Source of the DNA: Naegleria gruberi
Lineage: Eukaryota
NCBI GenBank assembly: GCA_000004985.1
Contig: GG738859.1
Strand: one strand, 5' to 3'
Length of the DNA: 64,000 nucleotides
Position 1 is the first letter of the stretch; every line of letters starts with the position of its first letter. Below are positions 3,741-64,000 of this stretch, piece by piece. The notes beneath the pieces are model-generated. The model saw only the letters and a list, made by a program, of their open reading frames with translations, was not told the DNA's origin and did no database searches. A program made the translations under genes and the position numbers.

Positions 3741-4856
3741 TTATATAATGTTCAGTGTTTCCAAATCCTTTTGAAGCAAGATATTCTTCACATCATTAAA
3801 GACCATCTTGATATTATTGGTGTTGGTGGCTGTTGTTACATGGCTATAGAGTTGAGTATTCTTAGAGTTAAGTGATTTGAATTTGTTAATGATGAAATCT
3901 CGAGCTGATTCATATTGATGTCCTCCATGGTAATCACTAAAGGCCACTCTCAGATCTGCATTCTTAATCTTTTCTCTGAACAGATCATCCTTGTTGAATA
4001 AGACAATAATTGGAATGGACTTGAAACAATCAAGCTCACAAATTTCTCTAAAAAGAAGTAAGCTTTCGTGTATTCTATTGGTAGTCTTATCTTCCTCTAA
4101 ATTCATATCAAAATCATTAAGTGAGCAAATAAACACGACAGCTGTAGTATCCACAAAGGCATGAATCCACTTTCTTCTCTCCGTCCTTTGACCACCAACA
4201 TCTGTGAATTTCCATCTGTATCCATCGGCATCAAATTCAACCTCAGTAATACCTAGGGTGGTTAATCTGGCTTTGATGATGTCTTCCTGGGTGGCTACAT
4301 AATCTGGTTTGCATATTCTTTCACAATGATCCAGGAAACTGTTGAATTACCAATGATGAAAATTAATTAATATATATTAATTAGAACAATCATTTCTTAA
4401 ATAACATCTTCAAATAACTTACTATTCAATAGTGTCATTGATGGTAAATTCAGATCTTTTGGCCAAACACTGTTTCATGCCTGGATCTTTCCACAGTTTT
4501 GCAATCTTTCCAGCAATATCCTCTCCATAATTCTCGGTTTTTGTTGTTAGGATTTTTTGAATTTCAATAACAGGCTCCTTAGCAATAGACATTATCATTG
4601 AGGCTGTATCTTCATTCTCCTTCATCAACTCAATTCCTAGATCGTGCATTGCTTTGAGTATTGCCGAACATCCCTCAATCAAATTCTCTCTCACCACATT
4701 CGACATGGAAATCTTTTCCTTCTCTGTGAAGGGCTTATTATTAATAATTCTCAATTGTTTAAAGAGTGTACTCTTTCCACTTTGAGCCGTACCTAGCAAA
4801 ATGAGCTTTAACACTCTCTTTGGTTCATCTTCACCTCCACAGTCAAAGCAGCCCAT
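3741..4856 (-). CDS. heterotrimeric G-protein alpha subunit (2 exons, ~343 aa)
   Basis: Exon 1 complement(4423..4856), intron 4339..4422 (84 nt, GTAAGT..AACAG), exon 2 complement(3741..4338). N-terminus MGCFDCGG is an acylation-type start. P-loop GTAQSGKST. Splicing joins ..INDTIE|YFLDHCERICKPDYVATQEDIIKARLTTLGITE (switch I RxxTxGI), then FTDVGGQRTERRKWIHAF, LFNKDDLF (NKxD) and TTATNT (G5). Confidence 0.85.
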
Positions 4857-5315
4857 TTTTTTCTTAATAATTTAATCCTTAAGGATTTTACTTCTTAACG
4901 GTCAAAAGAAAAAGACTTGATGAATCGTTCCTTCTTTCCAATGCATGAATATATAAAGCAGTGAATTAAAAATGGAACAAAAAATTCAAAATTCCTTAAC
5001 ATTGTTTTTCAATTCAATTGAAGTAATTGACCATGAATGGGTAGTTTTTTAGTTCTACGGAGTTTCAAACTCCAGCAATCTATCATAATTTTATTAGAAA
5101 AAGAACAAGCAATTCTCTTTATGATTTCTAATTTAAAAAAATGAGAAAACGTTGCTGAGCAACACATAATCATCAATTATTACATTCATTAAAACAATTA
5201 TTGATCAGTAAAGAGAATTTAAAATCGGATACTATTTACTATTCATTTATACATCATCAGCATCATTTAGAAAAATATATATCTTGTTGTTGTTATTACA
5301 TAAGACAAGGTGAGA

Positions 5316-8300
5316 ATGAGATTACCAATTCCTCAAAATGTAATGCCGAATAATATGGCAAATAATCATCATCATCCTCCTCATCATCATCAAAATAATA
5401 ATTACCCTAAACATCATTATCATGCCCATTCACGATTTAATGTTAATACTCAACAAAAGCATTTACCACTTTTCAGAAGGGATTTTATTATAGTGGCTGA
5501 GTTTTGTGAACAGAAGGGTCCGACACCTCTTCTCGTCTTGCCAAATGATCGAGCCTTGGAACGTTTCAATGTTCAAAAGTTTGTAACAAGAGTATTGGCT
5601 GGTGATCACACAAGGAAACACGACAAGTTGGGAGATAATTGTACTTGGATTTGTCCAGAGGATACTCAAGTCTACTTGACAGATTCTGCTCAAGGAGCTT
5701 TTGCCTATGTATGTTTCAAAATCAATTCATTATTGGAAATTAATTTTTACTATCTTTCTCTGTTAACTTTACTGTTTATTTATCTTGTTTGATTATCAAT
5801 CATCTACACAACAACAGGTACATCACATTACACTTCATGATATCAATGCAAGAGGATATGTTAGACCAATGGTCATGTGCTATGTGACCAATGATAAGGA
5901 TAAAATAATGCACCATTTTGAATACTTGCTAAATACCTTTACACAAGTTTCACAAACACTCAAGTATGGAAACAATTGTAAATTCTTGAGCGATACTCAA
6001 CATCAATTATATGGAATTCAGAAAATAGAAATGAAATTACATCCCAACAGTGGAAATGAACTGTCTTCACCAAGTATTAGTTCCTCACAGGAATTATCAA
6101 ATGAAGAAAAAATTGAAAAACGTTGGAGAGAAATGTCAGAAGGTTTATTCTCTCCCAACAATGAGAATGCACTTTCAAAGGATACTTTCGAATTGGTAAT
6201 GAAAGAATTGAAGGATTTGAGACGAAGATTCATGATACACATGAACAAGTCCTCATCCATACTGAAACCAAAAAAGAAGACTCAAAAAAACAAAAAGAAT
6301 TCCAAATCAGGTCCATTACAAAATCATACATATTTATTTGAAGAATCGAGGTCAAGATCTGCGAGTAATAGCTCACAATCTACCTATGGAGCTGGGTCCA
6401 CAGAGGAAGATAATTCCGATCAGGAAGTTTCTTCGCTAGGAGATCCTAGTAGTGGTGACTACAAAGTAGTTCAAATTGTACATAATAGCAGCAGTGGAAA
6501 CAAATTGGAGGAAAATGATTTCAATGAAGAATTGGATGAAGAGTCTACCGAACTCATCCTCAATAAGATTGCTGATGAGGAAACTCTTGATACGGGGTTA
6601 ATCGATCATATTTACATGTCGTTTAGTGCTGGAACTTCCTCAGTTTCATCTCTACATTTACATCCAACATTTGCAGTTAATCCTAAGGCAAATCTGAATG
6701 CTGTACCATATAAGAGTTCGCATTTTGTTGGAGGGTTTAGTGGTGCTAGTGTTGGTGCTCCAACAACAGCCTTCTTGTCCTCTCCTCATCAAGGTTCACA
6801 TATTCAAAACACATCTCATATGGTGAATGTACTGAATGATATTAGTGATTCTCCATATTTGAACAGCATTTCCAGTCCAACATTCAATGCAATGAATTCT
6901 CTCAAGGTTCAAAATCCTGACTTTGTGGAATTGTATGAGACTGGTCTTTCTGTGTCCTCTCATAATTTGAAACAATTCATGCCAACCATTTTAAGATGTA
7001 TCCACAGAAATACTAATTTTGAAACCACCCTGAGAACGTTAGCTCAAATTGCTGGACAGAAATTTTATGAAACATCGGTTGATTTGATGTTGAATATTAT
7101 CGAACATTTCTATAGAGATTGTGATGTTATTGATATGGAAAATGCCGACTTGGATATTATCAATTCGAATGACCTTAACTCAATGCTCTTCATTGGAAGA
7201 AACTTTTTATTGGACTTTAATATTGAAAATGGTTATCATTACCCACCAACGTTAAGCAATACCACATTTACAAAGAGCTTCCAATACCAATCAGCTCTGA
7301 ATACTAGTGCTAGCATCAACTCTTCCAATGATGAAGTTTCATGGTTAGACAATGAAAATACATACAATGATGCTGAAGATGAGGCACTATCAACCATCTC
7401 TCATGATGAGCAAGACAATCCACTATTTGGAAGCTTCCCTTCCTCCTCTCCTGTGATGGCAAACAACTCTATCGAACAAAGCAACTCTCTTTCAACCAAC
7501 AACAGTGACCGCTTTCAACTGTACAGAAATGGATTCAAGGGCACTGGTTCCTATGTCAATAGTCTATTCCAAGAATATGACAAGTATGATGAATTATTCC
7601 ACGAATTGAAAAAGAGAAAACATAATTCCTCCAATTATACTGCATCAAATAATAACCAAAATCAATCCCTTCTAACCTCTCTCCTGTTTGAATATAATTA
7701 TGGTGAGCATAGTTACGGAAAAGGAATATTAAGGTTTTTCAGAGAATTTTCATTCACAAAAGATATTGCCTACTCCATCATGATTGGTCGACCTATAGTA
7801 ATATATGCAGATTCTAATCAAGAACAGTAAGTATTAGATCACCACTCTTTTCAAAAATTAATTAATACTTTTATCCAATACAGAATTGTAAGAAGTATTG
7901 TCAACTCCCTAGCTTTATTCATACCAGGGTTTATCAATGGAACATTTGAAAATACAAAGAATGACTACTTTTCTGTTTGTTATTGGAAGACCACTCCAAT
8001 CAATGTAAGTTTTTTCAGCAACATTCAATATCAACTCTGAAAAGATTCTTGATTTTTCCACAAACAAGATTATTGGGCTGAGTAAGAAAGTTCATTTCCC
8101 TACAACATTCGAATCTTGGGTGAGCATTTTGGATTTGGAAAATGAACTCTATACTGGACCAAGCTATTATGGAAGATATTTGGATATTATCTTTGATGAG
8201 TCAAAGGAGTGGTTTACTGAGGATGCATTCTTGGCCTTTACGCATGCCATCTTTTTAGAAATGGGCATGAAGGCATCACTCTACAATCAATTGTATTCCA

Positions 8301-8728
8301 TTGCAAAAACTAGAGGGCACTTTTACAAGAAATCCCTCCACAAAATCTCAACCACTGATCAAGCACCAAAAGATGGAGGAAGATCATCTCTATTTGGACC
8401 AATGTTCCCATCCCTACCACCACAAATGATTCACAAACATAATTCTCAATCCTCAAAGAAATCCAAACAAAAGAAAGCCTCTCAGCATTCACACAGCTAC
8501 CCTATTGGTTCAGGTGCTCTGGAATCCATGAAAGATTGCAGTAAGACCATCCAAAGACAATTAGGACTCAAATCTTGTGACTCTAAAATAGTTGATTATT
8601 TGGTAGATTTGATTCACATTCAGGAATCTATGGAATTAATGTTAAATCCAGTCCTTCAAAACTCCATTCGTGTTGACACTGAAGTTTCTCTCAAGCATAC
8701 CAATAAAAGAAGAAAACAAACCAAGTGA
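5316..8728 (+). CDS. folliculin (FLCN/BHD)-like protein, 4 exons, with a very large Ser/Asn-rich insertion (~1060 aa)
   Basis: Exons 5316..5708, 5818..7826, 7884..8004, 8069..8728. Donors GTATGT/GTAAGT/GTAAGT, acceptors ..CAACAG/..AATACAG/..AACAAG. ORF-track entries 5310.., 5785.. and 8120.. are one gene. N-terminus: IIVAEFCEQKGPTPLLVLP (cf. FLCN ALCHFCELHGPRTLF) plus DNCTWICPED (Cys/His cluster). Exon 2: ARGYVRPMVMCYVTNDKDKIMHHFEYLLNTFTQV (cf. [31 protein letters not shown]). Exons 2/3: IMIGRPIVIYADSNQEQ|IVRSIVNSLALFIPG (cf. [30 protein letters not shown], DENN-like C-terminal domain). Confidence 0.7.
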
Positions 8729-9749
8729 GATGGACAATCCACTGTGGTATTCCTGATAATCGAAAAAGTGACTTATTTTATCAAATTTTCAATTGTTTCA
8801 ATGATTTAAATTCAATCACAAGATAGATGACAATGAAATGAAACGGAATTGTTGTACAGTTAATTGAAGATGATCCACTTATCATGTGGTTGTAATAATT
8901 TACTTTCATTGTGTTCGCTTCACACTTTGGATCATTTATAGAATGAGAGTAATTAATTGGAATTTCATTTATTCGAAACCATGAATCCCAACTCTCACGA
9001 TATTTTTATTCGAATTATCCATCAACAGACATTCAAACACTTTTCGTGATGAAAAAACTGTAAATGTACTTTTCAATGCTTGTTCCATCATCAATACATT
9101 TCAAGTTGGTTCTCAGTGAGAGATATTTCTCTTACCATTCATCTTATTGAAAAACAAAGCTCTTTGGAAGTGCTCTAACCCTAAACTAAAAGAAAGATCA
9201 TTTCGTTTACTTTCGTCTTCAGTTTCTGATTTTGACAACAATCTTGCATAAGATAATCCCACAAGTCAACCAAATCTCAATTATTGCAACTCATTCCAAT
9301 GATGTGAATCACTTGCCGAGTATTTCACGCTGCAAGCCAAATAAAATTCATGCCTTCTTTTTTAATGGTTGTTCGTCAAAATGATGTATGGAGACGTCAG
9401 TTGTCTATCAATAAAAAACAACGTAAAAAAAAACACTTTTCATCCTCTCGCACACTCACTTCATCCAAAACTTCATCAACGAAGCGAAAAGGACAAACTT
9501 GAAAACACAACACACTGATTAAAACATTGAAGTGTGTTCCATTGTTCATTAAAGGCGTTTTCCTCTCTAAAACATTGAAAAAAAAAAGCGGCGCGCTTTA
9601 TTTACCGTAAATTTTAAAACATAGATAACACACAACGCAGGAAGTTGCTTTTGTTTTCTCTCTCACTCTCTAGGAATAAGAAGATAACACACATATAATA
9701 TTTGTAGATTACAAATTACATACAACAATTGATTTAATATAGAAGAAAA

Positions 9750-11002
9750 ATGGGTATTTGCGCAACTAAACAACCAGGATCAGTCCAAGCACTGAATGAA
9801 ATTGAAAAGGGAAGACAACAACAAGAAAGAGAAATTAAAGTCTTGCTTTTGGGAGCAGGTGAATCTGGTAAGAGTAAGTAATCATAACGATAATTGATGG
9901 TGGTTGACCATATACAACAATAACAATTTTAATAACTACAAACTACTAATGATTGTTTGTTGAATGAACATGTTTAATAATGGTAATGATGATCATATGA
10001 AAACCTTTTATCTTTGTTTCTTCAACTTTAACTGATTATAAATTTATATATTGATGATTTATAATAGGTACCATTTTCAAGCAAATGAAGATTATCCATC
10101 AAAATGGTTACTCTGAAGAAGAAAGAGAATCATACAAGGAAATTATCTACGGTAACATATTAAAAGCCATGAAGAATCTGGTCCAAGCGACCTTCTCTTT
10201 TAACATTCCTATTGAACAGGAAGAAAACAGAGAACGTGCTGGTAAGATCAATGAACTCGAACAAGAAGCTCTGCTACACGTACATAAATATTGGACAGCT
10301 GAAATTGCTGACGATATTCAATGTTTGTGGTCAGATCCTGGTATTCAAAAAGTTTTTGAGAAACGTAACGAATTCCAATTGGACGATTCTGCTCCATACT
10401 ATTTCACTCACCTTGATAGAATTAAACAAGCTGACTATAAGCCAACTTTAGAAGACGTTGTCAGATCAAGAGTCAAGACAACTGGTATTGTAGAAATGAG
10501 CTTTAAATTAGATGATAGATCTGTAACCTTGATCGACGTTGGTGGCCAAAGAAACGAACGTAAAAAGTGGATTCACTGCTTTGAAGGTGTCACTGCTATT
10601 ATCTTTGTTACATCACTGAGTGAGTATGATCAAAGATGTTATGAAGATGATTCCACCAACCGTATGCATGAATCCTTGCTATTGTTCGACGAAATTTGTA
10701 ACTCTAGATGGTTCATGGATACATCCATTATCTTGTTCTTGAACAAGATGGATTTGTTCAAGGAAAAGATCAAGAGAACTGATCTCAGTCAATTCTTCCA
10801 AGAATATGAAGGTGGTAGAAACTTTGAAACTGCTGCCAGCTTTATTCGTTCTAAATTCGAAGAAAAGAACAGAAATCCAAGACACAAGACCATCTATGCT
10901 CACTTTACATGTGCCACAGATACACAACAATTACAACAGGTCTTTGATGCCATCAAGGATATCATTCTTAACAAGACTTTAAGAGAACAAGGTCTTTTCT
11001 AA
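9750..11002 (+). CDS. heterotrimeric G-protein alpha subunit (2 exons, 352 aa), canonical motifs
   Basis: Exon 1 9750..9873 (MGICATKQ..KVLLLGAGESGK), intron 9874..10067 (GTAAGT..AATAG, 194 nt), exon 2 10068..11002. Motifs: GAGESGKST, RVKTTGIVE, DVGGQRNERKKWIHCFEGVTAIIFV, FLNKMDLF, TCATDT. MGxxxT/S N-terminus suggests N-myristoylation. Confidence 0.9.
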
Positions 11003-11220
11003 ATGTCCTCCCACATTGTCATATTACTCTATTATCAACCCAAAAGAACTTTTCCAATTCTCTTTCCCCACAAACAATCACACATAAAACATCGAATGAA
11101 AATAAGTGTTCAATTTTGTAAATAACATAATACTTCAATTCCAATTAAATAAAAACACATTAAAAACATTATGAAACAAACGAGTGAGCGAACAAACTCA
11201 AATAATGAAAGAACTAAAAA

Positions 11221-12306
11221 ATGGGTGCAAAACAAAGCAGGAATAGTGCAAAGAAAGTAGACGAAAGCTCATCCACAATACAAGAGAAGAAAATACAAGA
11301 AAGAACCGTTATGCTTTTCTCAAAATGCGGAGCAAGTACATTCAGCAGACAACTCACGAATGATAAATTACATGATAAAAATCAAATTGACTATTGTTGT
11401 CATGCTCTGTTATCACGAATGGAAAATTTTGATGAATTTTATTCTATGGATGAAGAATTTGCAAGATTAAAGAATTTCAATCAATTTAATAGAATTCCAA
11501 GACCTAGGGAAATGCTTACAAGAATTTGGAAACATGACGAAATGAGACGAATCTTAATGGAAAAGTATCACAATGTTTGGAGATTTGAAAATTTATCTTT
11601 ATTTATGGAACACTTATTGAATGGAAATTTTGATAATCAATTGGAAAATCCTTTTACATATGCTTCAACAAAAACAACAGGTGTTATAATTAGTGATTTC
11701 ATTCATAGTGATCCAATTATTGGTCAACCCATTAAATACAATCTAGCAGAAATTGGAGGATCTAGAAGTGAATGGAAGAAAGCATTTATCTGTTTTGAAA
11801 ATGTTTATTTTATATTCTTCTTTTGTGGACTTTCGGATTTTCATGATAATCCTAACTATGATTTCGAACATGAATTTGTAAAATTCAATTATGTTTTTAC
11901 CTGCAATAAGTTTCATGAGATTAATCCAAATTGTAGAATAATATTCTTATTTACAAAACCAGACATCTTACAATCAAAGCTTAAAAGGGGCAGTATTTAT
12001 GACATTAAGAAGAATTATGAAATAAGGGAAGAATTGAAACAAATATCAAATGAAAATGAAAGAAATGTCATCAATTCCATAGTATGTGATTTTTTTGCAG
12101 AGCACGAGACGGAGTATCACATTGTAAATTTACTAAATAAGGAGGAGGTTAATCAGGTGAGAGATTTGATTTTGAGTGGAGTGAAATCAAGGTTTCCATT
12201 CATTTCTAAATGTTTGAGAGATGAAGGAAAATGGAGGCAAGTTCTTTTCAGAATATTGAAAGATTCTAAACTTGGTGATATTTCAATAATTGCCAGAGGT
12301 GAATAA
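11221..12306 (+). CDS. divergent G-alpha-like protein with degenerate GTP-binding/hydrolysis motifs (probable pseudo-GTPase), 361 aa, single exon
   Basis: MGAKQS start. Clear G-alpha homology along the full length. The P-loop GxGESGKST is replaced by FSKCGASTFSR. The switch I Arg is lost (ASTKTTGV instead of RVKTTGI). DVGGQ is replaced by EIGGSRSEWKKAFICFENVYFIFF, so the catalytic Gln becomes Ser. NKxD is replaced by TKPD. It lies 218 bp downstream of the canonical G-alpha at 9750..11002, in the same orientation. Confidence 0.75.
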   Translation: MGAKQSRNSAKKVDESSSTIQEKKIQERTVMLFSKCGASTFSRQLTNDKLHDKNQIDYCCHALLSRMENFDEFYSMDEEFARLKNFNQFNRIPRPREMLTRIWKHDEMRRILMEKYHNVWRFENLSLFMEHLLNGNFDNQLENPFTYASTKTTGVIISDFIHSDPIIGQPIKYNLAEIGGSRSEWKKAFICFENVYFIFFFCGLSDFHDNPNYDFEHEFVKFNYVFTCNKFHEINPNCRIIFLFTKPDILQSKLKRGSIYDIKKNYEIREELKQISNENERNVINSIVCDFFAEHETEYHIVNLLNKEEVNQVRDLILSGVKSRFPFISKCLRDEGKWRQVLFRILKDSKLGDISIIARGE

Positions 12307-12437: not shown

Positions 12438-12663
12438 AATTTTAGATTTTAGTGTCTTCCCTTAACTGCACAATAGCCATTTTCATAACGATGCAATCTC
12501 AAAATAAATTCATGTTAAAAAAATGTTAGAAAAAAATTAATTCTTTCATTTTTGGTAGTTTACCATTTTGGTTAATTTATCTTCAATATTTGCTATTATC
12601 CTTTTTTGTTTTTTTTACTTTTTGGCTACCTTTTCCAAGTTATCTTTAAAAAAAACAAGCAAA

Positions 12664-14883
12664 ATGGTAGAATCACCAATTCTTCAAAAAGATCCTAATG
12701 AACAGCTGTTGCTACAAAGCCAAAAGCCACTTGGTCAACCACAACAGCAACCTTACAATGCCATGCAAATGGAACTCACTCCACAACAGCAAACTCTGGA
12801 AAGTGTTGATAGACAAATGACTCAAGCATTTGGTCAACCATTGCCCCAACAGCAACCCATCCAATTTCAACAGCAACAACCATTAACCAGTAGTAGTGGT
12901 ACCTTGCCAACTGCTAGCAATTTGGAAAGAAGAGAAGAACCTGAAAAACTTATTCAACCTTCTGAAGAATTAATGGAAGAGAAACAAGGTGGTAGTGCTC
13001 TTGGTGTTAGCAACATTTCTGGTTCTAGTAGTGGAGCTACTCAACAAATGTCCATTTCTCCTTCGGTAGAAAAGTCAACCTTGCCACCCTTACCAACTAG
13101 TACCTTGCCTCAATCTGAACCATTTAGCCAGGAACAACATATGGTTAGTCATGATGTGAAAACACCTCACATTCGTGAGTACCCATGTATGAAAGCAGTT
13201 GTTACTTGTAACTATCAACAAGATGAACCAGAACACATGCTTGTTTATGTTGACAAGTATCCAAGACCTATTCGTATGAAATCTGATGAAATTCTTGTCA
13301 GAATGAAATGTGCTAGTGTCAATGATTTGGATTACAAAATCTGTCAAGGTAAAATTCCAGTTGAAATTCAAACTACTCCAATTCATTATCCGCTCATTGT
13401 TGGCGCAGATGGATGTGGTATAATTGAGAAATTAGGTGGAGATCCAACTAATCTCAGAGTAGGTGATTGTGTCTTTGGTTTCACCAATCAATTGGGTACA
13501 TTTGGTGAGTTTGCTATCTTTAAGGAGAGAGAAGTCATGATGAAACCTGACTGGTTGAGTATGGAAATGGCCAGCTGCATTCCATTCAGTGCTCTTGCTG
13601 CAATGAATTGTTTCCTTCTTGTTGATAAGAAGAGAAAGAAGAAACATGGTTTATTGGGTCCTTCCTTGTCAGTAATGAATAGAATTAGCAAATCACCTCG
13701 CTCAGTTGGTCAATCATCAAGCGTAGAAGAATCCTTTGAGAAAAAGGTCATTGAAAGCTCACAATCTCATCAGAAACTAACTCATGAAAATGAACCAATT
13801 AACCTTGAAGTTGTCAACCAACTGTTAAATGGTGACAAATCTGGTTCCATTCTCATCCAAGGAGGTGATACTTATATTGGCTCTTGGTGTATCTTACTAG
13901 CACGTTACTATTTTGGAGCTCAACGTATCTATACAACCATCAGTACAATGGACAATGAAGAATATGTTAGAAAGATGGGTGCTGATGTCATTCTCAATTC
14001 ACACGATGCCAAATATGAAGAAACCATTGAAAAAGATTTGTTGCAATATTGGGAAACATTTTGTTGTGAATTGGATCCTCACAAGAATCAACAAACAATG
14101 CAACCTCCAGCAACCTCTACATTGAATACAAGTACTGGTAGTGAAACTGTAACCCAACAAATGCAACCAACTTCAATGGTCAATCCACATCAAATGCAAA
14201 CTACCCAACAAACCATGCCTAGCTCAAACATGCAACAAACTTCATACACAACCACTACAGAGACAGTTCAAGAACAAGTGGGTTTTCCTTCTTCTTCTCA
14301 ACAAACTCATACAGTTCCAAGTCAAATGGAGTACAAGCCAAGTATGATGCATCAAACAGAACCTTCCAATGTTTCCATGTCTCCTCAACAACCATCTCCA
14401 ACTCATACTCCACTCACTCAATGGCCACATCCTGCCTTTAAATCAAAGAAGGAAATGGAGAAGTGTAAGCTCTTGATTTCAACACTCCAATTATCAATTG
14501 ACACAGTTGGTGGTTATGATAATATGCAAAAGTCATTCAATTTGTTGAATGGAAGTACCAGTCATTACATTACTACCAATCCACCAATTGAGTTGGAACA
14601 AAAGAAGGTCAGTGGAAAGGATGTTTGGAAATTGGTAAGTATGGCAGCTGCAAACAGATTGAAGAGTTTCTTTGCTAATTATCCACATTTCCACCTCTTG
14701 CCTGCTGTTCAATGTGAGAGAGAATTGATGGTAGAGTTGATGAAATGGTTTGAACAAATGGATAGAGATTGGATCCACAAGTTACTTCCATTCAAGACTT
14801 ATCCAATGACTGAAGCTGCTCGTGCTATGGCAGATTGTAAAAAGAATCCTTTCAAATTAGTGATTAACGTATCCAATGAATAA
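12664..14883 (+). CDS. MDR-superfamily (quinone oxidoreductase / Zn-ADH-like) domain protein flanked by Gln/Pro/Thr-rich low-complexity regions (~739 aa)
   Basis: First ATG in the ORF is at 12664 (the track start 12568 is TTG). GroES-like N-domain: CMKAVVTCNYQQDEPEHMLVYVDKYPRPIRMKSDEILVRMKCASVNDLDYKICQGKIPVE..PLIVGADGCGIIEKLGG..LRVGDCVFGF. Rossmann part: SILIQGGDTYIGSWCILLARYYFGAQRIYTTIS. TAA at 14881..14883. Confidence 0.6.
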   Translation: MVESPILQKDPNEQLLLQSQKPLGQPQQQPYNAMQMELTPQQQTLESVDRQMTQAFGQPLPQQQPIQFQQQQPLTSSSGTLPTASNLERREEPEKLIQPSEELMEEKQGGSALGVSNISGSSSGATQQMSISPSVEKSTLPPLPTSTLPQSEPFSQEQHMVSHDVKTPHIREYPCMKAVVTCNYQQDEPEHMLVYVDKYPRPIRMKSDEILVRMKCASVNDLDYKICQGKIPVEIQTTPIHYPLIVGADGCGIIEKLGGDPTNLRVGDCVFGFTNQLGTFGEFAIFKEREVMMKPDWLSMEMASCIPFSALAAMNCFLLVDKKRKKKHGLLGPSLSVMNRISKSPRSVGQSSSVEESFEKKVIESSQSHQKLTHENEPINLEVVNQLLNGDKSGSILIQGGDTYIGSWCILLARYYFGAQRIYTTISTMDNEEYVRKMGADVILNSHDAKYEETIEKDLLQYWETFCCELDPHKNQQTMQPPATSTLNTSTGSETVTQQMQPTSMVNPHQMQTTQQTMPSSNMQQTSYTTTTETVQEQVGFPSSSQQTHTVPSQMEYKPSMMHQTEPSNVSMSPQQPSPTHTPLTQWPHPAFKSKKEMEKCKLLISTLQLSIDTVGGYDNMQKSFNLLNGSTSHYITTNPPIELEQKKVSGKDVWKLVSMAAANRLKSFFANYPHFHLLPAVQCERELMVELMKWFEQMDRDWIHKLLPFKTYPMTEAARAMADCKKNPFKLVINVSNE

Positions 14884-28760: not shown

Positions 28761-31700
28761 ATGAAGAAACTATTATCAACAATGGGAGCTCACGATTCTC
28801 AACAACAACAACAAAATCATGGAAATTCATCATCAACAACTCCACGAGAACAATTACTTGGTATTCCATTGAGTGGAAAGAGAGCGACAACTAATTTGAG
28901 TGGCTATTCGAATCAATCATCCTCCTCCTCACCAAATACCACAACAAGTGTCAGCAGTAGCAATGTATTTAGTACAAGTAGTTCGATACTGAGTAATTCG
29001 AATAGTGCTGTTTCGTCTCCTCCTCATCATTCTATGCATTTTACAAATCCAATAACTTATCCATCATCTTCATCATCAGCAACAACAACAGGAGGAGGAG
29101 GAGGTAGAAATAGAAGTAACAGCTCCTCTTCAACACATCATCAATATTTGGGAGCTACTTCTCCATCAACCATGTCAACTTCACCACACAATGCCATTTC
29201 TCCCAACACTTTACAAAGTCATATTCAAAATATGCAACAAACAGCAAAGAATGAACAATTACATGCAAAGCAAATTCAATTAGCCAAGATGTATAAATTC
29301 CAATTTGAGGAAATTTATGATAATCATGAAACTAGAGCCCTTTTTAAACAATTTCTTATCAAGAATCAGAACGGAGAAAATATCTATTTTGATAAGACTC
29401 TAGATTCCGAGTATAAACCTCTAAAATCGAATAGAAATAGATATTATATGGCAAAGAGAATAGTAGAGACGTTTATAAAGGAGGGATCTCCGTATGAAGT
29501 GAATTTATCAGAAAAGGTGAAACATGCCTTGTTGAGAGAGTTTGCAAAGGCAAGTGAAGAAAATTGTCCTTTAGATTTATTTGATTCTGTTCAGTATCAA
29601 GTTTTAAGTTCAATGAGAATGGTATGTTTTTTTTATTGATCGATTTGAATTTGAATTTTTATTATTTGATTTTATAATTATTTGATGATTTGATGATTTG
29701 TAATAATTTATTGGAAACTACATAGGATGCCTATCCAAGATTTGTACAAAGTGATGAATTTTTAAGTTTTATTGGAAGTAAATTATTAAATGCAAAGAAT
29801 ATGCATCATAAACTGAGGTTTTTAAAGGCCATTAATGCTGTTAGAAAGGTTTCACCTCTGGAATTATCATCTTCAAAGGCCAATCTCAGAAAGAGTTTGA
29901 ATGTGAAACAAAAAAAGACTGAGGAAGATCAATTGAAGGAAGCTCTAATCATGGACCAAATAGAATTGGAAGATAATGCTCATGAAAATTTAATATTACA
30001 CATTCCTGATGCTGATCCTACATTGACACCTCGATCCTATTATACCTACACTTCTGCACCTGCCAATGGTCAAACAGCTCCATCACTCAATTCTCCAAAT
30101 AATACCAACAATCATGCACATACTCATCAAACATCGGAAATTAGTGAACCTTCTACAATTAAGAGAAGTATGTCAAATTTGATGGGACATTTCTTTAAGA
30201 GTGGCGACAAACAATCAAGTAACGAAAAGAATTCAAACAATAGAAAGAGTACAGCTGCTACTCCAGTTCAACCCTATGTTCATACCACTAGAAATAGACA
30301 TTCTAGATCAGGATCTGCTCTTGGTCTTTCTCTGGGTGAGTTGACAACAAGTAGTAATAGCATTGGAGTTAAATTGCATGACAGCTTACCGAAAGCTATT
30401 CCTCCAATTAACAACTTTATTGTCACACCTGGTAGCGATGATGAACATGACGATGAGGAAGATTATTCCAACAATACTGCCGACCATCAAGATAATGAGG
30501 ATGACGATGACATTCCACTCTCTGAGCACGAAAGAGTTAAAAGATTTGACACCATTCTCAGTAAGAGTAACATGTTTGGACAAAATCATAATCACCATCA
30601 TCATCATCAAGATGAAATGGTTGAAGTTATTGATCCATGGCAAGATGTGGAATCTTACATTTCTGGAGATTCTTCTGACGATGATGAAGATGAATTGGAT
30701 CAAATGGATATTGGAGGAAATTTGGCAGCTATTGCTGGCACTCATGTTAATTCCAGTCCTCTTACACACAATACAATTGTTCCAATTCTTGAAGGATTGT
30801 CGACTCATATAGAAGATCTACAACTTTCTACAAGAGAAGTTGAAGCCATCAAATCTGAGTACATGCACTATGTGGATAACAAGTCAGTATTGGATCTTGC
30901 AACCATTTTGAAACAAGTAGATGAGAAGGATAAGAAAACTAAATCAGGATGGTCCATGGTCAATTTGCAACCTAAAAAGAGAAGACTCGGCAGGAGAAGT
31001 AAATCAATTTCCTCATTGGACCTGATTGCACAACATTCAGTGAAGGCCTACTCTGCAAGATTTGACTCTATTGCCACCGATGATATTACATACATGTTGA
31101 GAAGATCTTGTCGATTGCCTTACAATGCCTTTTCAGTTTTACAAATTTTGGCAGATGAAAGCACGGACGAAAGTATTGTCAATCCGTTATTGACAAGTCC
31201 AGCAGAATATATCGAATTTATTGTTAAGGAAACTGAACATGCCTATGCCTCATTGATTACTTTAGAAGGTGCCAGATGGCCTTGGCCTCTTAAACAACGT
31301 CACTATGTCACCACTGGTACTGTTATTTCTGATATTATCAATGACGAAAAGGATAATCCAGGAAGAAAACGTTATGTCATTATCAAGAGAAGTGTTGTAA
31401 ATAATCCAAAATTGGAAATTACATTGAGTAAGAAGGATAATCCAAACAGAGTATTTGGACTCAAATTAGAGGCCTACTTTATCGAATCTTTCAATACCAA
31501 TGAATGTACATTGACCATGTTCAATGAATGGAAATTCACCAATGCCAACAAGTGGTCCTTCCCAACCAAACTCTTTAGAAAAACTCTGAGAACCTTCTCC
31601 ACTGATTTCCATCAAAATTTAATTGACAGATTATCGAGCTCAGCTGGTCATCAACCAATTTCCTATCATGAATTCATCAGCCATACCAATACAGCTCACG

Positions 31701-31993
31701 ATGTCTCTCCAAGAAACGATCACACTCTCCTCCACACACTCTTCCGTAATCAAGCTCTATCTCCATATAAGAAGAAGGAGGAAATTAAGGGTAAAGTTCA
31801 GAGTGTTTTCAATACATTATCCCTGATGAGATTATTCGAGTATGATCTTCATGAAACTTGTCGAATCATTGAGGAAAGATATCACAATTCAAGTGCTACT
31901 ACACCATCTGATGATAATAATCAACATCTTGTCAATCCTTCCATTCACATTGTTTCTGAAGAATCATCTCAGAAACAAACAAAAGTCTTGTAA
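28761..31993 (+). CDS. RGS (regulator of G-protein signalling) domain protein with long low-complexity N-terminus and ~700-aa C-terminal extension (2 exons, ~1042 aa)
   Basis: Exon 1 28761..29621, intron 29622..29725 (GTATGT..CATAG), exon 2 29726..31993. The RGS domain spans the intron: FEEIYDNHETRALFKQFLIKNQNGENIYFDKTLDSEYKPLKSNRNRYYMAKRIVETFIKEGSPYEVNLSEKVKHALLREF..FDSVQYQVLSSMRM|DAYPRFVQSDEF. Confidence 0.8.
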
Positions 31994-40788: not shown

Positions 40789-42179
40789 TTAGACAGTATT
40801 CTCTTGAATATTACTTGGGGCAGTATGCAATTCTTGAGATTCGTCCACTTTAGCTCCAATTTTGTTGGTTTGTTTTCGTTTAGTTGACGAGGTTCCATTA
40901 GAAGATATGCTATTTCTTCTAAATACTCGTTGAACCTCCTTCAATGGTCTATGAATTCCAATAAACAAACTAACAATCACAACAATAGTCACGTCATAAG
41001 TCACAAAATAAACCAACATTAAATTCTTATCAATCATTGACAGTGGAATGAAAAAGAATCCAATAAACTGAATGACCAAACACACTGTTGCAACAATCAA
41101 TATAGCCCATGCTTTTTTCAATACTTGTTTCTTAATATTTACGGAATTTTCTTGTTCCTTACTTTCAATGTAAGGCGTTTCAATTTTTTCTGATTTTTCT
41201 TGTTGTGTTTGTTGAGTGATTTCTGAATTATTATTTTGATTGATTGAAGGATTGGTGAGCTGAGCATTATTTTGAAGAGCTTTGGCTCTTGCATGACCTT
41301 GATGGAGAGATTTCAAGAGTATACTTCCAGTCATCTGGAAATGTCACATTGACATGTATGAAATTAAAGTATTACTTACATGGAGAAGACATAAAATACA
41401 GATGGACAATACAAAGAATGTCAAGGCACTAATCAAGAAAACAGCCAATATCAAATTATTCATCACTGGAGTATTTCCATATCCAGCAATTAATCCTCCT
41501 GCCACAAACAAGATTACAGTCAAGACACAAATTATAATAAACAAGACAATTAAAAATCCAATAATCAAATATCTCATAATCTTGTACTTTCTAGTCGAAA
41601 CTGCTCCAACTGCCTTTGTCGTATTCAAACTATCATTATTGTAAACTCTTAAAAATCCTTAATTTCAAAAAAAACTTACAAAATCAATGAAACATGACCC
41701 AACAATAGAAATTCCCAATAACAATTCCATGAAATTACAGTTCTATCCAAAGCTTTCATTACAGCATAGATTTCATCTGCCTTAACAAGAGTTGGATCTA
41801 AATAACTCAATTCGGCACACATTCTTGTGAGCATATTCAAAGTGGAGAAACTGCAAAATGCCATTAGAATGTAAAAGATTATTCTCTGGTTTCGTTTTAA
41901 TTCGCTTTTCATTGTAATAATTTTGTAAATGCATAAAAATAATAAAAATGGAAAGATGAACATGAAGGGAATGTTAATGCCGAATGTGGTGTATTGATAA
42001 TAAGTCATGTGGTGAGTGACTGTTGTTGATGAATTGTTGGTGGAATTGAAGGTATCTGAAAGGTTGTCAAGGGTTGTACTTTCGAATAAGAAACTATCCA
42101 AAAAATGATGATTCCCAAATAGAAAATTTAAAGACAATTGTTGAAAATTGTCGTTTAGAGATGTGGAGCTATCTGCCAT
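40789..42179 (-). CDS. seven-transmembrane receptor-like protein (GPCR-like topology), 3 exons, ~437 aa
   Basis: Exons complement(41680..42179), (41380..41647), (40789..41334); introns of 32 and 45 nt (GTAAGT donors). Spliced product has 7 hydrophobic helices: IPFMFIFPFLLFLCIY / IIFYILMAFCSFSTLNML / WEFLLLGHVSLILLV / YLIIGFLIVLFIIICVLTVILFV / LILAVFLISALTFFVLSICILCLL / AWAILIVATVCLVIQFIGFFFIPL / LMLVYFVTYDVTIVVIVSLFIGI. The N-terminus is N-glycosylation-rich (NSTNNSST), there is a long third cytoplasmic loop, and the C-tail is Ser/Thr-rich. Confidence 0.6.
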
Positions 42180-47972: not shown

Positions 47973-48303
47973 GATTGATCTCATAAAGATAAATTAAAAC
48001 ATAAACCAGTATAAGTATGCAATTTTTCAAAAACTCAAAATTCTAATCCGCCTTCTTATCAATAATTGATACTTCTGGATGGAAAATGAATATCTCAGTA
48101 AGATGACTCAATTGACCAATTAAACCAAGGCTGGAAAGCCGTTATGGTGATAAATCTCAGGGTGGACTTGGGCTTTCATCTCCAGTTGATATAAGTCACA
48201 GATGCCGTCACCCCATAACACTTAAACGCTGAACCGAATTACTGGTTGTAGACCTCGTCTCTCAGGTCTTTACGATACAAGAGACGTTAATAAATATTAC
48301 AAT

Positions 48304-52071: not shown

Positions 52072-52806
52072 TTTTTATGTTTGTATGAGATTTGAGAGTT
52101 AAATTTAGTGCGAATAAATTTGTGTTTTGAATTCCCAAGCCAATTTATTTTAAAATTCCGTCCTGATTATAATCTTTGAATGAAGTACAAAAGCAACTTG
52201 GTTGATAAAAAACAAAACAACTACAGAAGTAACGAAACTACGCACTTTTTGAGATGTTTACAAGTGTTTAATGCATAGAATTGGATAAATTCGTCATCAC
52301 TGGTGGATCTACTGGACAAGTTGAAAACTGTCAATGTAGTATTGTTCGGAAGTCAATAGTAGGTAGGAGAACTTTCTCTTATCAATTTTGGTCAAGTTAT
52401 GTGAATTTTGAAAAAGTATGGACCATAACTCAACATGAATGGAGCAACACTTTTCTATTATATTCAATGAATAAGGGATGAGAAACACTCATTTGAAGAA
52501 GATAGATTTCCAGTGATATTTTCTCTCTCTATACAATTTATTATTTCAAAATCTGTTAAATTAAAATATTGGAGTGGTAATTGTTGAAAATTAAGAGAAA
52601 AATCTTTCCTGCTACATTCCATTCGCCAATTATGTTAATCTTTTGTAAGCAAATTGGAAAAGTTGACTGAGTTTAAGATTAACAAGTTCAGTTTATACTA
52701 TTCCTCAATTTGGTGTTTTAAAAGTCAAGTTGTTAGTTAAGAATAGTTTTTTTCAAATACTGGAATCATTGAATAGAAGTGAAATAATAAAATAACATAA
52801 AAGAAA

Positions 52807-62838: not shown

Positions 62839-63649
62839 ATTGTGAACACAATGGTATCAATAGTTATATGATTCATGATAGTTTAAAATTGAGTTGGTCA
62901 TCTAAGGATAGGTCATTAAGGTTTGAATGAATTGATATGAAATTCAATACCAATTATTGAAATACCATGACTAACTGATCTATATATGATGCTATAATTG
63001 AAAGATTTTAAAATTAATATGATTTGATTATCTTGATATTCATTATTCCCATGATTACACTCCTGACATGTTGAATGATATCAAATTGTCATGAAACTGA
63101 TACAGTAGTGTTCATTCACCTTTTGTAAGGTACTGTATCAATTTCATAATGATCTGTAAAGTAGATGTCATTGTCACATCCCTGTAGGTATCAAGTGGAT
63201 CTGCCATGTACCATGTATGATATGGATGAATATCAAAATGATATTACTGTATTTCATTATCATGTGTAGATGTATTGGAAGTGAATTGAAGTGGTATAGA
63301 TTTCTATCTTCAATGTTAGTATAGGTCAGTTGACAAGTTGAATAGCAAATATCCTGAAATGATACCAAAGTATTTGAAATTGATATATATTGTTATTAAC
63401 ATGATTTATAAGGTGATATATTGATTTGAAATGAATTTGAAATGTTTTCATTGATATTTTAATTGTCTAATCTATTATATGAAATTAACTTATATAAGAC
63501 ATGATAATGATGTAATATTATGTTATATTATGATTATATATTCAATTTGGAGTATATTGATATATAATATATTGATTTATAATGAGTATTTATTGAGATA
63601 ATTAATTAAGATGAATAAAAGTCAAAATGTTGGGTCTGACCTTAGTCGT

Positions 63650-64000
63650 GGGTTTGGGTTTGGGTTTGGGTTTGGGTTTGGGTTTGGGTTTGGGTTTGGG
63701 TTTGGGTTTGGGTTTGGGTTTGGGTTTGGGTTTGGGTTTGGGTTTGGGTTTGGGTTTGGGTTTGGGTTTGGGTTTGGGTTTGGGTTTGGGTTTGGGTTTG
63801 GGTTTGGGTTTGGGTTTGGGTTTGGGTTTGGGTTTGGGTTTGGGTTTGGGTTTGGGTTTGGGTTTGGGTTTGGGTTTGGGTTTGGGTTTGGGTTTGGGTT
63901 TGGGTTTGGGTTTGGGTTTGGGTTTGGGTTTGGGTTTGGGTTTGGGTTTGGGTTTGGGTTTGGGTTTGGGTTTGGGTTCGGGTTTGGGTTTGGGTTTGGA
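63650..64000 (+). repeat. telomeric repeat (GGGTTT)n, ~58 units, running to the window end (chromosome terminus; G-rich strand 5'->3' toward the end)
   Basis: Perfect hexamer array from 63650. One variant unit GGGTTC at ~63974..63979. Preceded by AT-rich unique sequence and the satellite. Confidence 0.9.

What the first reader, a model, noticed from the sequence alone, without database searches (positions are those of the whole stretch)
3741..12306. Cluster of three G-alpha genes within 8.6 kb, part of a 55-kb signalling-rich island
The three genes are G-alpha(-) at 3741..4856, G-alpha(+) at 9750..11002 and G-alpha-like(+) at 11221..12306. The same window also holds an RGS protein (28761..31993), a 7-TM receptor-like gene (40789..42179), three cyclase-homology-domain proteins, an F-box/LRR/MATH protein and an NHL protein. 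Folliculin (a GAP for Rag GTPases) sits between two G-alpha genes. This density of G-protein pathway components at a chromosome end suggests a rapidly evolving subtelomeric sensory-gene neighbourhood.
Basis: inference. Interest (0 to 1): 0.5.

Follow-up and report, generated by a model that had tools for sequence, protein, structure and literature searches.

The report
Conserved three-gene G-alpha cluster in Naegleria
Three G-protein alpha-subunit genes really do sit within 8.6 kb near a telomere of the amoeba Naegleria gruberi, but they are three old, very different family members held in a gene block shared with other Naegleria species, not a fast-evolving subtelomeric sensory family.

Summary
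The window is the telomeric end of a 530-kb Naegleria gruberi NEG-M scaffold. The three G-alpha genes are at exactly the stated coordinates and are already annotated (D2VAE3, D2VAE5, D2VAE6). With 44 G-alpha genes in about 41 Mb, three within 8.6 kb is unlikely by chance (P about 0.002).

They are not recent tandem copies: Ga1 and Ga2 are 39% identical, and Ga3 is about 25% identical to either.
- Ga2 is a canonical Gi-like subunit, 95-97% identical to its N. fowleri and N. lovaniensis orthologue. That orthologue is the studied Nf Galpha2.
- Ga1 is the orthologue of Nf Galpha1, which has a "TAQ" P-loop and is a slow GTPase.
- Ga3 belongs to a Naegleria-specific divergent clade and has lost the P-loop Lys, the Arg finger and the catalytic Gln. 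It is probably GTPase-dead.

The block Ga1 / SMCR8 / Ga2 / (variable slot) / ADH-like is conserved in N. lovaniensis and N. fowleri, with one rearrangement. Only the slot 3' of Ga2 turns over.

"Folliculin" is actually SMCR8. One RGS gene is what this genome's 229 RGS genes predict. Two of the three "cyclase" genes score below the Pfam threshold.

Truly subtelomeric dynamics are confined to the last ~18 kb. Genome-wide enrichment near chromosome ends could not be tested. Modest interest.

The parts
3741..4856 (-). Ga1: G-alpha gene (D2VAE3, NAEGRDRAFT_47943), 343 aa. Exons 4856-4423 and 4338-3741, intron 4422-4339. P-loop is GTAQSGKST. Orthologue of N. fowleri Nf Galpha1.
   Evidence: Pfam G-alpha on both exons. 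GTAAGT...AG intron restores the 'YFL' motif. Exact match to the annotated protein. 73% identical to N. lovaniensis P0180; the N. fowleri protein P0313 is in the same >=90% cluster as P0180. Residues 23-TAQ-25 and the 343-aa length match Nf Galpha1 of PMC9283941. Its forward primer matches L008:10031.
4857..5315 (.). Shared 5' intergenic region of the head-to-head pair Ga1 / SMCR8. Putative bidirectional promoter.
   Evidence: The divergent orientation is kept in N. lovaniensis (L006) and N. fowleri (L008). The alignment shows one short shared block, GTTTTnTCATTTTTT. Promoter function is inferred.
5316..8728 (+). SMCR8 orthologue (FLCN/SMCR8 longin-DENN family), about 1,000-1,150 aa. Intron 1 is 5709-5817. 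A second intron lies within about 7790-8125 and is not resolved.
   Evidence: phmmer against PDB: human SMCR8 6LT0_B, E = 5.8e-26. Orthologues in N. lovaniensis and N. fowleri carry PF27109 SMCR8_C. Pfam Folliculin gives only 18.4 bits, below the 23.3 cut-off. Splice sites.
9750..11002 (+). Ga2: canonical Gi/o-like G-alpha (D2VAE5, NAEGRDRAFT_38654), 352 aa. Exons 9750-9873 and 10068-11002, with a phase-1 intron in the Ser codon of GKS|T. Orthologue of Nf Galpha2.
   Evidence: Pfam G-alpha 402 bits. Splice sites. Same >=90% cluster as the N. fowleri/N. lovaniensis protein P0131. 95-97% identity by tblastn. 88% identity to Willaertia. Both published Nf Galpha2 primers match the N. fowleri orthologue.
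11221..12306 (+). Ga3: divergent G-alpha-like gene (D2VAE6, NAEGRDRAFT_65833), 361 aa, no intron, 218 bp downstream of Ga2. Predicted GTPase-dead. Starts with the myristoylation-type motif MGAKQS.
   Evidence: Pfam G-alpha 62 bits. Alignment to transducin/Gi shows R->S (Arg finger), DVGGQ->EIGGS, W->A in switch II and NKxD->TKPD. P-loop is SKCGAST, lacking Lys. AF2 model (pLDDT 70, pTM 0.71) matches G-alpha structures over about 330 columns at probability 1.0. Member of a 100%-bootstrap Naegleria clade.
12568..14883 (+). ADH-like (zinc-dehydrogenase fold) gene. It is the fifth member of the conserved block.
   Evidence: Pfam ADH_N 45.9 bits. 39-45% identical orthologues sit next to the cluster in N. 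lovaniensis and N. fowleri.
63649..63999 (+). Telomere, (TTTGGG)n, 58.5 copies, with the G-rich strand running 5'->3' to the end.
   Evidence: TTTGGG was proposed as the N. gruberi telomere repeat in PMC3622300.

Best explanation
The three genes are three anciently diverged members of the large N. gruberi G-alpha family (44 genes). They are kept together in a small gene block that is at least as old as the genus Naegleria: Ga1 head-to-head with SMCR8, then Ga2, a variable slot, and an ADH-like gene. The block is not a product of recent subtelomeric amplification.

Functionally:
- Ga2 is the canonical Gi-like transducer. Its N. fowleri orthologue cycles nucleotide normally, is accelerated by a 7TM-RGS protein, and binds an RGS-RhoGEF effector.
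- Ga1 is a slow-hydrolysing, RGS-insensitive subunit, because of its TAQ P-loop.
- Ga3 keeps the two-domain G-alpha fold and an N-terminal lipidation motif but has lost the residues needed to bind and hydrolyse GTP. It most likely acts, if at all, as a membrane-anchored, nucleotide-independent G-alpha-like adaptor or decoy.

Shown here: gene structures, orthology, synteny, the motif losses and the fold. Taken from the literature on the orthologues: the biochemistry of Ga1 and Ga2. Inferred: any function of Ga3, and co-regulation within the block.
For: Organism and gene identity: Ga3 and window neighbours; Ga1, Ga2.

Divergence: Ga1/Ga2 39% identical; Ga3 24-26% to either. There are three separate clades in a bootstrapped NJ tree: Ga1 clade 100%, Ga2 + Willaertia 98%, Ga3 clade 100%. 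Ga1 and Ga2 share no intron position.

Conservation: Ga2 95-97% to N. fowleri/N. lovaniensis; Ga1 73% over the full protein (63-80% by segment); SMCR8 55-80%; ADH-like about 40-45%.

Synteny:
- N. lovaniensis PYSW02000026.1: Ga2(+), Ga-like(+), ADH(+), SMCR8(-), Ga1(+).
- N. fowleri VFQX01000001.1: Ga2(+), an insert with no G-alpha gene, ADH(+), SMCR8(-), Ga1(+).
- Flanking genes outside the block do not match the window.

Orthology to the characterised proteins: P-loop numbering 23-TAQ-25 and 36-AGE-38, lengths 343 and 352 aa, and primer matches.

Ga3 motif losses. Fold. Intact ORFs in the paralogue D2VKV9 (70% identical), and dN/dS 0.41 over 130 codons against a D2VKV9-like sequence.

Non-randomness of the cluster: P = 0.0017.
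Against: - The origin of the cluster is unresolved. Ga1 is not sister to Ga2 in the tree, so ancient tandem duplication is not demonstrated.
- The block is absent from Willaertia, where only Ga2 is found next to an EF-hand gene, with an unrelated 1,064-aa G-alpha 5 kb away.
- Ga3 has no orthologue in the same slot in N. lovaniensis. The gene there is a different degenerate G-alpha, so 'conserved three-gene cluster' strictly applies only to Ga1 and Ga2.
- No expression or biochemical data for the N. gruberi genes were examined.
- The dN/dS estimate rests on 62 substitutions in a possibly chimeric metagenome contig.
- The NJ tree is a simple distance tree with long branches.
Confidence: 0.7

Rival explanations
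1. One reading: a rapidly evolving subtelomeric neighbourhood in which sensory and signalling gene families (G-alpha, RGS, cyclases, 7TM) are amplified and diversified by recombination at the chromosome end.
For: - The cluster is 51-60 kb from a true telomere.
- The distal ~18 kb shows real subtelomeric dynamics: a 2.5-kb inverted duplication carrying cyclase-like genes around an RdRP gene, plus a 315-bp satellite.
- Ga3 has a 70% identical paralogue on another scaffold, and a metagenome contig is a mosaic of the two.
- The slot 3' of Ga2 differs in every genome examined.
- In N. fowleri and N. lovaniensis the block also lies 58-110 kb from a contig end.
Against: - Ga1, SMCR8, Ga2 and ADH-like are conserved as a block across species, and Ga2 is 95-97% identical.
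- The three G-alpha genes are not each other's close paralogues.
- The RGS count is at background.
- Other members of the Ga3 clade lie inside contigs with no G-alpha neighbour.
- Housekeeping genes separate the cluster from the repeat-rich end.
Confidence: 0.12
2. Ancient tandem array with birth-and-death. Ga1, Ga2 and the slot genes all descend from local duplications of one ancestral G-alpha. The site 3' of Ga2 keeps spawning duplicates that lose GTPase residues, diverge fast and sometimes disperse. These duplicates would include Ga3 and its clade, and the N. lovaniensis 424-aa gene.
For: - The N. lovaniensis slot gene shares Ga2's exact phase-1 intron in the GKS|T codon, and Ga2 is its best match (27-34% identity).
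- In two species a degenerate G-alpha lies immediately 3' of Ga2 on the same strand. By my estimate (about 0.3-0.6% per neighbour, from 44 G-alpha genes among roughly 15,700 genes, the latter figure from my own knowledge) two independent insertions there would be very unlikely.
- Both slot genes have lost the P-loop Lys.
Against: - Ga3 and the N. lovaniensis slot gene show no significant similarity to each other (E = 4.9).
- The N. lovaniensis gene lacks the Ga3-clade hallmarks (TKPD, YHIVN, FISPCL tail).
- Its tree position is unstable: 53% of bootstraps place it with the canonical clade and 43% with the Ga3 clade.
- Ga1 shares no intron with Ga2 and is not its sister.
- Willaertia has no such array.
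Confidence: 0.3
3. Ga3 is a decaying pseudogene-like relic with no function. The 'cluster of three' is then effectively a pair of functional genes plus debris.
For: - It has lost the P-loop Lys, Arg finger, catalytic Gln, switch II Trp and the Asn of NKxD.
- It scores only 62 bits against the family model.
- There is no orthologue in the same slot in the sister species.
Against: - The 361-codon ORF is intact.
- The paralogue at 70% identity is also intact, at 359 aa.
- dN/dS is about 0.4 rather than about 1.
- The MGxxxS motif is retained, as is the clade-specific C-terminal tail with invariant I-S and near-invariant C across 11 sequences.
- AF2 folds it as a G-alpha.
Confidence: 0.15

Closest known systems
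Naegleria fowleri Nf Galpha1 and Nf Galpha2 (Bosch, Jeck & Siderovski 2022, PMC9283941)
   Same: Window Ga1 and Ga2 are their orthologues. The lengths are the same (343 and 352 aa). Ga1 has the same unusual 23-TAQ-25 P-loop and Ga2 has 36-AGE-38. Identity is 73% for Ga1 (measured against the N. lovaniensis orthologue) and 95-97% for Ga2. The published primers hit the orthologous N. fowleri loci.
   Different: The biochemistry was measured on the N. fowleri proteins only: slow GTPase and RGS insensitivity for Galpha1; 7TM-RGS2 and RGS-RhoGEF binding for Galpha2. In the sections I read, that paper does not describe the genes' physical linkage. N. gruberi Ga1 starts MGCFDC (Gly2 present), whereas the N. 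fowleri protein starts MCFGCC.
Lineage-specific G-alpha expansion of N. gruberi, including members with deviant catalytic motifs (Anantharaman et al. 2011 as cited in PMC8584482; de Mendoza et al. 2014, PMC3971589)
   Same: Ga3 and its clade are examples of the reported Naegleria G-alpha proteins whose conserved catalytic motifs deviate, suggesting reduced or lost nucleotide-dependent activity.
   Different: I could not read the 2011 paper. I therefore cannot say whether this particular clade (TKPD for NKxD, YHIVN for TCAT, conserved FISPCL-type C-terminal tail) or its position next to Ga2 was described.
Plant extra-large G proteins (XLGs) and other GTPase-deficient G-alpha-like proteins
   Same: They have a G-alpha fold with degenerate nucleotide-binding motifs and are thought to signal with little or no GTP cycling (PMC8584482).
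   Different: Ga3 has no N-terminal extension and is of ordinary G-alpha length. It belongs to an unrelated, Naegleria-specific clade. No binding partner is known.
SMCR8 of the C9orf72-SMCR8-WDR41 complex (PDB 6LT0, 6V4U, 7MGE)
   Same: The gene between Ga1 and Ga2 matches the human SMCR8 longin domain at E = 5.8e-26, and its orthologues carry the SMCR8_C domain.
   Different: It is not folliculin. Its conserved head-to-head pairing with a G-alpha gene is, to my knowledge, not a known functional link. The middle of the protein is low-complexity and unalignable.

Membership tests
Heterotrimeric G-protein alpha subunit (Pfam PF00503), catalytically competent | Whole-protein match to the G-alpha profile above the gathering score, covering both the Ras-like and the helical domain | tested here: met
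   Ga1 exons score 98.6 and 143.7 bits, Ga2 402 bits and Ga3 62.3 bits, against a cut-off of 48.8. The Ga3 AF2 model aligns to G-alpha structures over about 330 columns.
Heterotrimeric G-protein alpha subunit (Pfam PF00503), catalytically competent | P-loop GxxxxGK[ST] | tested here: met
   Met for Ga1 (GTAQSGKST) and Ga2 (GAGESGKST). NOT met for Ga3 (SKCGAST: first Gly and Lys absent).
Heterotrimeric G-protein alpha subunit (Pfam PF00503), catalytically competent | Switch I Arg finger and Mg-binding Thr (RxxTxGI), switch II DxxGQ, and NKxD guanine-specificity box | tested here: not met
   This row refers to Ga3: ASTKTTGV (Arg->Ser), EIGGS (Asp->Glu, Gln->Ser), TKPD (Asn->Thr), and switch II Trp->Ala. 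Ga1 (RLTTLGI, DVGGQ, NKDD) and Ga2 (RVKTTGI, DVGGQ, NKMD) meet all of these.
Heterotrimeric G-protein alpha subunit (Pfam PF00503), catalytically competent | GTP binding and hydrolysis, and G-beta-gamma and receptor coupling | not testable with these tools
   Measured only for the N. fowleri orthologues of Ga1 and Ga2 (PMC9283941). Nothing is known for Ga3.
Orthologue of Nf Galpha1 / Nf Galpha2 | Best reciprocal-type match, conserved gene neighbourhood and diagnostic P-loop residues | tested here: met
   Ga1: top hit is N. lovaniensis P0180 at 73%, in one >=90% cluster with N. fowleri P0313, and the next hit is 45%. Ga2 is in one >=90% cluster with the N. fowleri/N. lovaniensis protein. Neighbours are shared. 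TAQ and AGE fall at the published residue numbers. Primers match.
Recent tandem or subtelomeric gene-family amplification | Cluster members are each other's closest paralogues, with high identity | tested here: not met
   Identities are 39% and about 25%. The genes fall in three separate clades. The closest relative of Ga3 (70%) is on another scaffold.
Recent tandem or subtelomeric gene-family amplification | Family enriched near chromosome ends genome-wide | not testable with these tools
   The N. gruberi genome is not in the position index. Three other Ga3-clade loci that could be read (L007, L009, L010) have no G-alpha neighbour, and the one on a large assembled contig (L007) lies in the interior of a 676-kb N. 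lovaniensis contig.
Folliculin (FLCN) | Specific match to the folliculin family rather than to its paralogue SMCR8 | tested here: not met
   Pfam Folliculin scores 18.4 bits, below the 23.3 cut-off. The only significant PDB matches are SMCR8, at E = 5.8e-26. Orthologues carry SMCR8_C.

The most novel reading that the evidence does not exclude
The linkage may be functional rather than historical, in two ways.

(i) The position 3' of the ultra-conserved Ga2 gene could be a 'nursery'. Duplicates would repeatedly lose GTPase residues there and become membrane-anchored, nucleotide-independent G-alpha decoys, co-expressed with Ga2 to buffer G-beta-gamma or receptors. Ga3 and the unrelated N. lovaniensis 424-aa gene would be two independent outcomes.

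(ii) The genus-wide head-to-head pairing of the slow-GTPase Ga1 with SMCR8 could reflect a shared promoter. That would couple heterotrimeric G-protein signalling to the C9orf72-SMCR8 small-GTPase GAP complex.
Probability: 0.1. Interest if true: 0.55.

Novelty: new member of a known kind. Interest (0 to 1): 0.25.

Why it matters
It matters little beyond Naegleria biology. The genes are already annotated, the family expansion is published, and two of the three have biochemically characterised orthologues.

What is modestly new:
- The genes for Nf Galpha1 and Nf Galpha2 are physically linked, with SMCR8 between or beside them, in a block conserved across the genus.
- The slot next to Ga2 holds different GTPase-dead G-alpha-like genes in different species.

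This gives a defined pair of candidate pseudo-G-alpha proteins to test. It is also a caution against reading "several signalling genes near a telomere" as a sensory island in an organism that carries 44 G-alpha and 229 RGS genes.

Tried and rejected
- Looking up N. gruberi paralogues in the contig index failed, because the genome is not indexed. Genome-wide mapping was therefore impossible.
- Fritz-Laylin 2010 and Anantharaman 2011 are not held. The G-alpha count of 44 is second-hand. No N. gruberi cyclase count was found. As a density guide, N. fowleri has 80 cyclases.
- I considered Ga3 to be the orthologue of the N. lovaniensis gene in the same slot. I rejected this because there is no significant similarity and the clade hallmarks are absent.
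- I considered 'Ga2 plus pseudo-G-alpha' to be a recurrent gene pair. I rejected this because none of three other Ga3-clade loci has a G-alpha neighbour.
- I considered synteny extending beyond the five-gene block. I rejected this because the flanks in N. lovaniensis and N. fowleri do not match any window ORF, and Willaertia shares only Ga2.
- The local Pfam copy lacks the SMCR8_C model, so the SMCR8 assignment rests on the PDB search and the precomputed hits.
- The second SMCR8 intron could not be fixed unambiguously.
Full report
**Origin of the window.** Exact-sequence look-ups place the window on a 530,355-bp scaffold of Naegleria gruberi NEG-M. For example, ORF 1149-3569 is EFC46414/D2VAE2 and ORF 11221-12306 is EFC46294/D2VAE6. 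The window ends in 58.5 copies of TTTGGG at 63649-63999. This is the repeat proposed as the N. gruberi telomere by Fulneckova et al. 2013 (PMC3622300). The G-rich strand runs 5'->3' to the end, as expected for a chromosome terminus. Proximal to the telomere are an assembly gap (60955-62839) and a 315-bp satellite (57007-59162, 6.8 copies).

**The observation.**
- Ga1 (minus strand) has two exons, 4856-4423 and 4338-3741. They are joined by an 84-nt GTAAGT...AG intron that restores the family's 'YFL' motif. The 343-aa product equals the annotated D2VAE3.
- Ga2 (plus strand) has exons 9750-9873 and 10068-11002. A 194-nt phase-1 intron splits the Ser codon of GKS|T. The 352-aa product corresponds to D2VAE5.
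- Ga3 is the single ORF 11221-12306, 218 bp downstream of Ga2.
- Pfam G-alpha scores are 98.6 and 143.7 bits (the two Ga1 exons), 402 bits (Ga2) and 62.3 bits (Ga3), against a cut-off of 48.8.
- tblastn finds no other G-alpha sequence in the window.

N. gruberi is reported to have 44 G-alpha genes (PMC8584482, citing Anantharaman 2011). Placing 44 points uniformly on 41 Mb (genome size from my own knowledge) gives a probability of 0.0017 that any three fall within 8.6 kb. The clustering is therefore not chance.

**What the three genes are.** They are not recent copies. Ga1 and Ga2 are 39% identical, and Ga3 is 24-26% identical to either over partial alignments. A bootstrapped neighbour-joining tree puts them in three separate clades.

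*Ga2* is a canonical Gi/o-like subunit with every catalytic motif intact.
- It is in the same 90% cluster as a protein shared by N. fowleri and N. lovaniensis (KAF0984996/KAG2381591), and is 95-97% identical to it by tblastn.
- It is 88% identical to Willaertia magna and 50-55% identical to animal and fungal Gi/o.
- Both PCR primers published for 'Nf Galpha2' (NF0010320) match the N. fowleri orthologue exactly. The residues 36-AGE-38 discussed for that protein sit at the same numbers in Ga2.

*Ga1* carries the P-loop GTAQSGKST.
- Bosch et al. describe '23-TAQ-25' as the unique feature of Nf Galpha1, conferring slow GTP hydrolysis and insensitivity to the RGS domains tested (PMC9283941).
- Ga1 has T23-A24-Q25, the same 343-aa length, and a 73% identical N. 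lovaniensis orthologue (P0180). P0180 shares a >=90% cluster with the N. fowleri protein P0313/FDP41_000029.
- The forward primer for Nf Galpha1 matches that N. fowleri gene.
- The next-best hit to Ga1 in the databases is only 45% identical, so this lineage appears confined to Naegleria.

*Ga3* is different. Aligned to transducin/Gi it shows the following changes:
- the Arg finger is replaced by Ser;
- DVGGQ is replaced by EIGGS;
- the switch II Trp is replaced by Ala;
- NKxD is replaced by TKPD;
- the P-loop reads SKCGAST, without the first Gly or the Lys.

It keeps an MGAKQS start, which is a myristoylation-type motif (my reading).

An exhaustive HMMER search, with names, places Ga3 in a clade of which every named member is from Naegleria. 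The members are N. gruberi D2VKV9 (70% identical, on another scaffold), D2VBI2 and D2VVW3, N. lovaniensis C9374_002998 and C9374_003200, and several unnamed environmental sequences.
- The clade has 100% bootstrap support.
- It shares TKPD, YHIVN in place of TCAT, and a conserved C-terminal tail (..FISPCL..L-DI-I).
- Most members retain GK[ST]. Ga3 and D2VKV9 are the most degenerate.

An AlphaFold2 model of Ga3 (pLDDT 70, pTM 0.71) matches G-alpha crystal structures over about 330 columns at probability 1.0. The two-domain fold is therefore kept.

Intact ORFs in both paralogues argue against a dead pseudogene. So does a dN/dS of 0.41 over the 130 codons where a metagenome contig (L005) carries D2VKV9-like sequence. 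That contig is a mosaic of the two paralogues and may be an assembly chimera, so this evidence is thin.

Catalytically deviant G-alpha proteins in Naegleria have already been noted in the literature.

**Synteny.**
- In N. lovaniensis (PYSW02000026.1, 78-110 kb from the contig start) the order is: EF-hand(-), DDX60-like helicase(+), Ga2(+), a 424-aa G-alpha-like gene(+), ADH-like(+), SMCR8(-), Ga1(+), then F-box, an RGS gene and others.
- In N. fowleri (VFQX01000001.1, 58-95 kb; Ga1 is locus tag FDP41_000029) the order is the same. The exception is that three minus-strand ORFs without Pfam hits replace the G-alpha-like gene.
- Compared with N. gruberi (Ga1(-), SMCR8(+), Ga2(+), Ga3(+), ADH(+)), the two sub-blocks [Ga1 / SMCR8] and [Ga2, slot, ADH] are both preserved internally, but their relative order and orientation differ.
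- Nothing outside the block matches between species.
- In Willaertia only EF-hand / Ga2 adjacency is seen. There is no Ga1, SMCR8, Ga3 or ADH nearby, though an unrelated 1,064-aa G-alpha lies 5 kb away.

The core is thus at least genus-old, and the 'rapidly evolving' label does not fit it.

**The variable slot.** The one fast-changing element is the slot 3' of Ga2.
- The N. lovaniensis gene there has also lost the P-loop Lys (GAGIST) and the DxxGQ motif (DPNQAG). It keeps NKMD and lacks the Ga3-clade tail.
- It has no significant similarity to Ga3 (E = 4.9).
- Its best match is Ga2 (27-34% identity), and it shares Ga2's exact phase-1 intron.
- N. fowleri has no G-alpha remnant in the slot.
- A 95% identical N. 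fowleri-like contig (L004) diverges from the reference inside the insert.
- Other Ga3-clade genes that could be examined (L007, L009, L010) have no G-alpha neighbour.

It remains unexplained why two different degenerate G-alpha genes occupy the same slot in two species. Differential loss from an older tandem array is the simplest account.

**The gene between Ga1 and Ga2.** It is not folliculin.
- Pfam Folliculin is below threshold (18.4 against 23.3 bits).
- The only significant PDB matches are human SMCR8 (6LT0_B, E = 5.8e-26).
- The orthologues carry the SMCR8_C domain.
- Its head-to-head arrangement with Ga1, across 437-505 bp of intergenic DNA, is kept in all three Naegleria species. The intergenic alignment shows one short shared block. 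Whether this reflects co-regulation is untested.

**The 'signalling-rich island'.**
- N. gruberi has 229 RGS proteins (PMC3971589). That gives 0.36 expected per 64 kb, and one is found.
- Of the three cyclase-homology genes, one sits exactly at the Pfam threshold (22.2 against 21.9 bits).
- The other two score 12.5 and 12.9 bits. They are 86-88% identical copies lying on the arms of a 2.5-kb inverted duplication (45433-47959 and 52835-55396, 81-97% identical) that brackets an RdRP gene.
- The '7-TM' gene has about seven hydrophobic segments but only weak claudin-like Pfam hits.
- MATH and NHL are confirmed. F-box is not.
- Between the cluster and the telomere lie a dynactin p22 gene, a THUMP-domain gene, a terpene synthase, a C2-domain gene, a P450 and the RdRP. 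A catalase gene lies on the other side of the cluster, at the window start.

Only the G-alpha genes are over-represented. Recognisably subtelomeric dynamics (duplication, satellite) are confined to roughly the last 18 kb.

**Verdict.** The cluster is a conserved linkage of three old G-alpha lineages, two of which have characterised orthologues, plus a GTPase-dead family member in a turnover-prone slot. It is not evidence of a fast-evolving subtelomeric sensory family.

The end-proximal position (51-60 kb from the telomere here, 58-110 kb from contig ends in two other species) is suggestive.

Novelty is low: annotated genes, a published family expansion and published biochemistry for the orthologues. 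The conserved linkage with SMCR8 and the slot turnover appear not to have been described in what I could read.

Noticed in passing
window 45433-55396: A large inverted duplication (arms 45433-47959 and 52835-55396; 81-97% identical, most similar at the inner ends) brackets an RNA-dependent RNA polymerase gene (48304-52071, minus strand; Pfam RdRP 274 bits). Each arm carries a degenerate cyclase-homology gene (46584-47972 plus strand, 53020-54219 minus strand; 86-88% aa identity).
   Followed up: partly
window 57007-59162 and 63649-63999: A 315-bp subtelomeric satellite (6.8 copies, 76% matches) lies about 4.5 kb before the (TTTGGG)n telomere. An assembly gap of Ns lies between them (60955-62839).
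   Followed up: partly
L005 (ENA metagenome contig ERZ929261 k127_185710) versus window 11221-12306: The contig is a mosaic. Its 5' flank and first ~100 codons resemble the other N. gruberi paralogue (D2VKV9; 74-92% nt identity to the window). From about codon 120 to the 3' flank it is 97-100% identical to window Ga3. This is either gene conversion between dispersed paralogues or an assembly chimera.
   Followed up: partly
L002 11570-18053 (N. fowleri), L004 7414-15773, L003 11331-13288 (N. lovaniensis): The interval between Ga2 and the ADH-like gene differs in every genome. N. lovaniensis has a 424-aa degenerate G-alpha. N. fowleri ATCC 30894 has three minus-strand ORFs (252, 245 and 851 aa) with no Pfam hits, possibly a mobile insertion. 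A 95% identical N. fowleri-like contig loses similarity inside that insert.
   Followed up: partly
window 4857-5315; L006 9496-10000; L008 9564-10000: The Ga1 / SMCR8 divergent intergenic region aligns poorly overall. It shares one short block (GTTTTnTCATTTTTT) in all three Naegleria species, which may be a promoter element.
   Followed up: no
L001 1647-4841 (Willaertia magna JBEGDK010000153.1): A 1,064-aa protein with a G-alpha domain (extra-large type) lies 5 kb upstream of the Willaertia Ga2 orthologue. It is only about 27% identical to Ga1 and Ga2.
   Followed up: no
window 32443-33549 and 42951-44402: A terpene synthase-like gene (Terpene_syn_C_2, 35 bits) and a cytochrome P450 gene (155 bits) lie about 9 kb apart on the same strand. 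This may be a small terpenoid gene pair.
   Followed up: no
window 28761-31993: The RGS gene has its RGS domain near the N-terminus (aa 181-287 of the first ORF), followed by a 730-aa ORF with no Pfam hit. This is unlike the 7TM-RGS architecture (RGS at the C-terminus) described for N. fowleri. I did not check whether the two ORFs are one gene.
   Followed up: no
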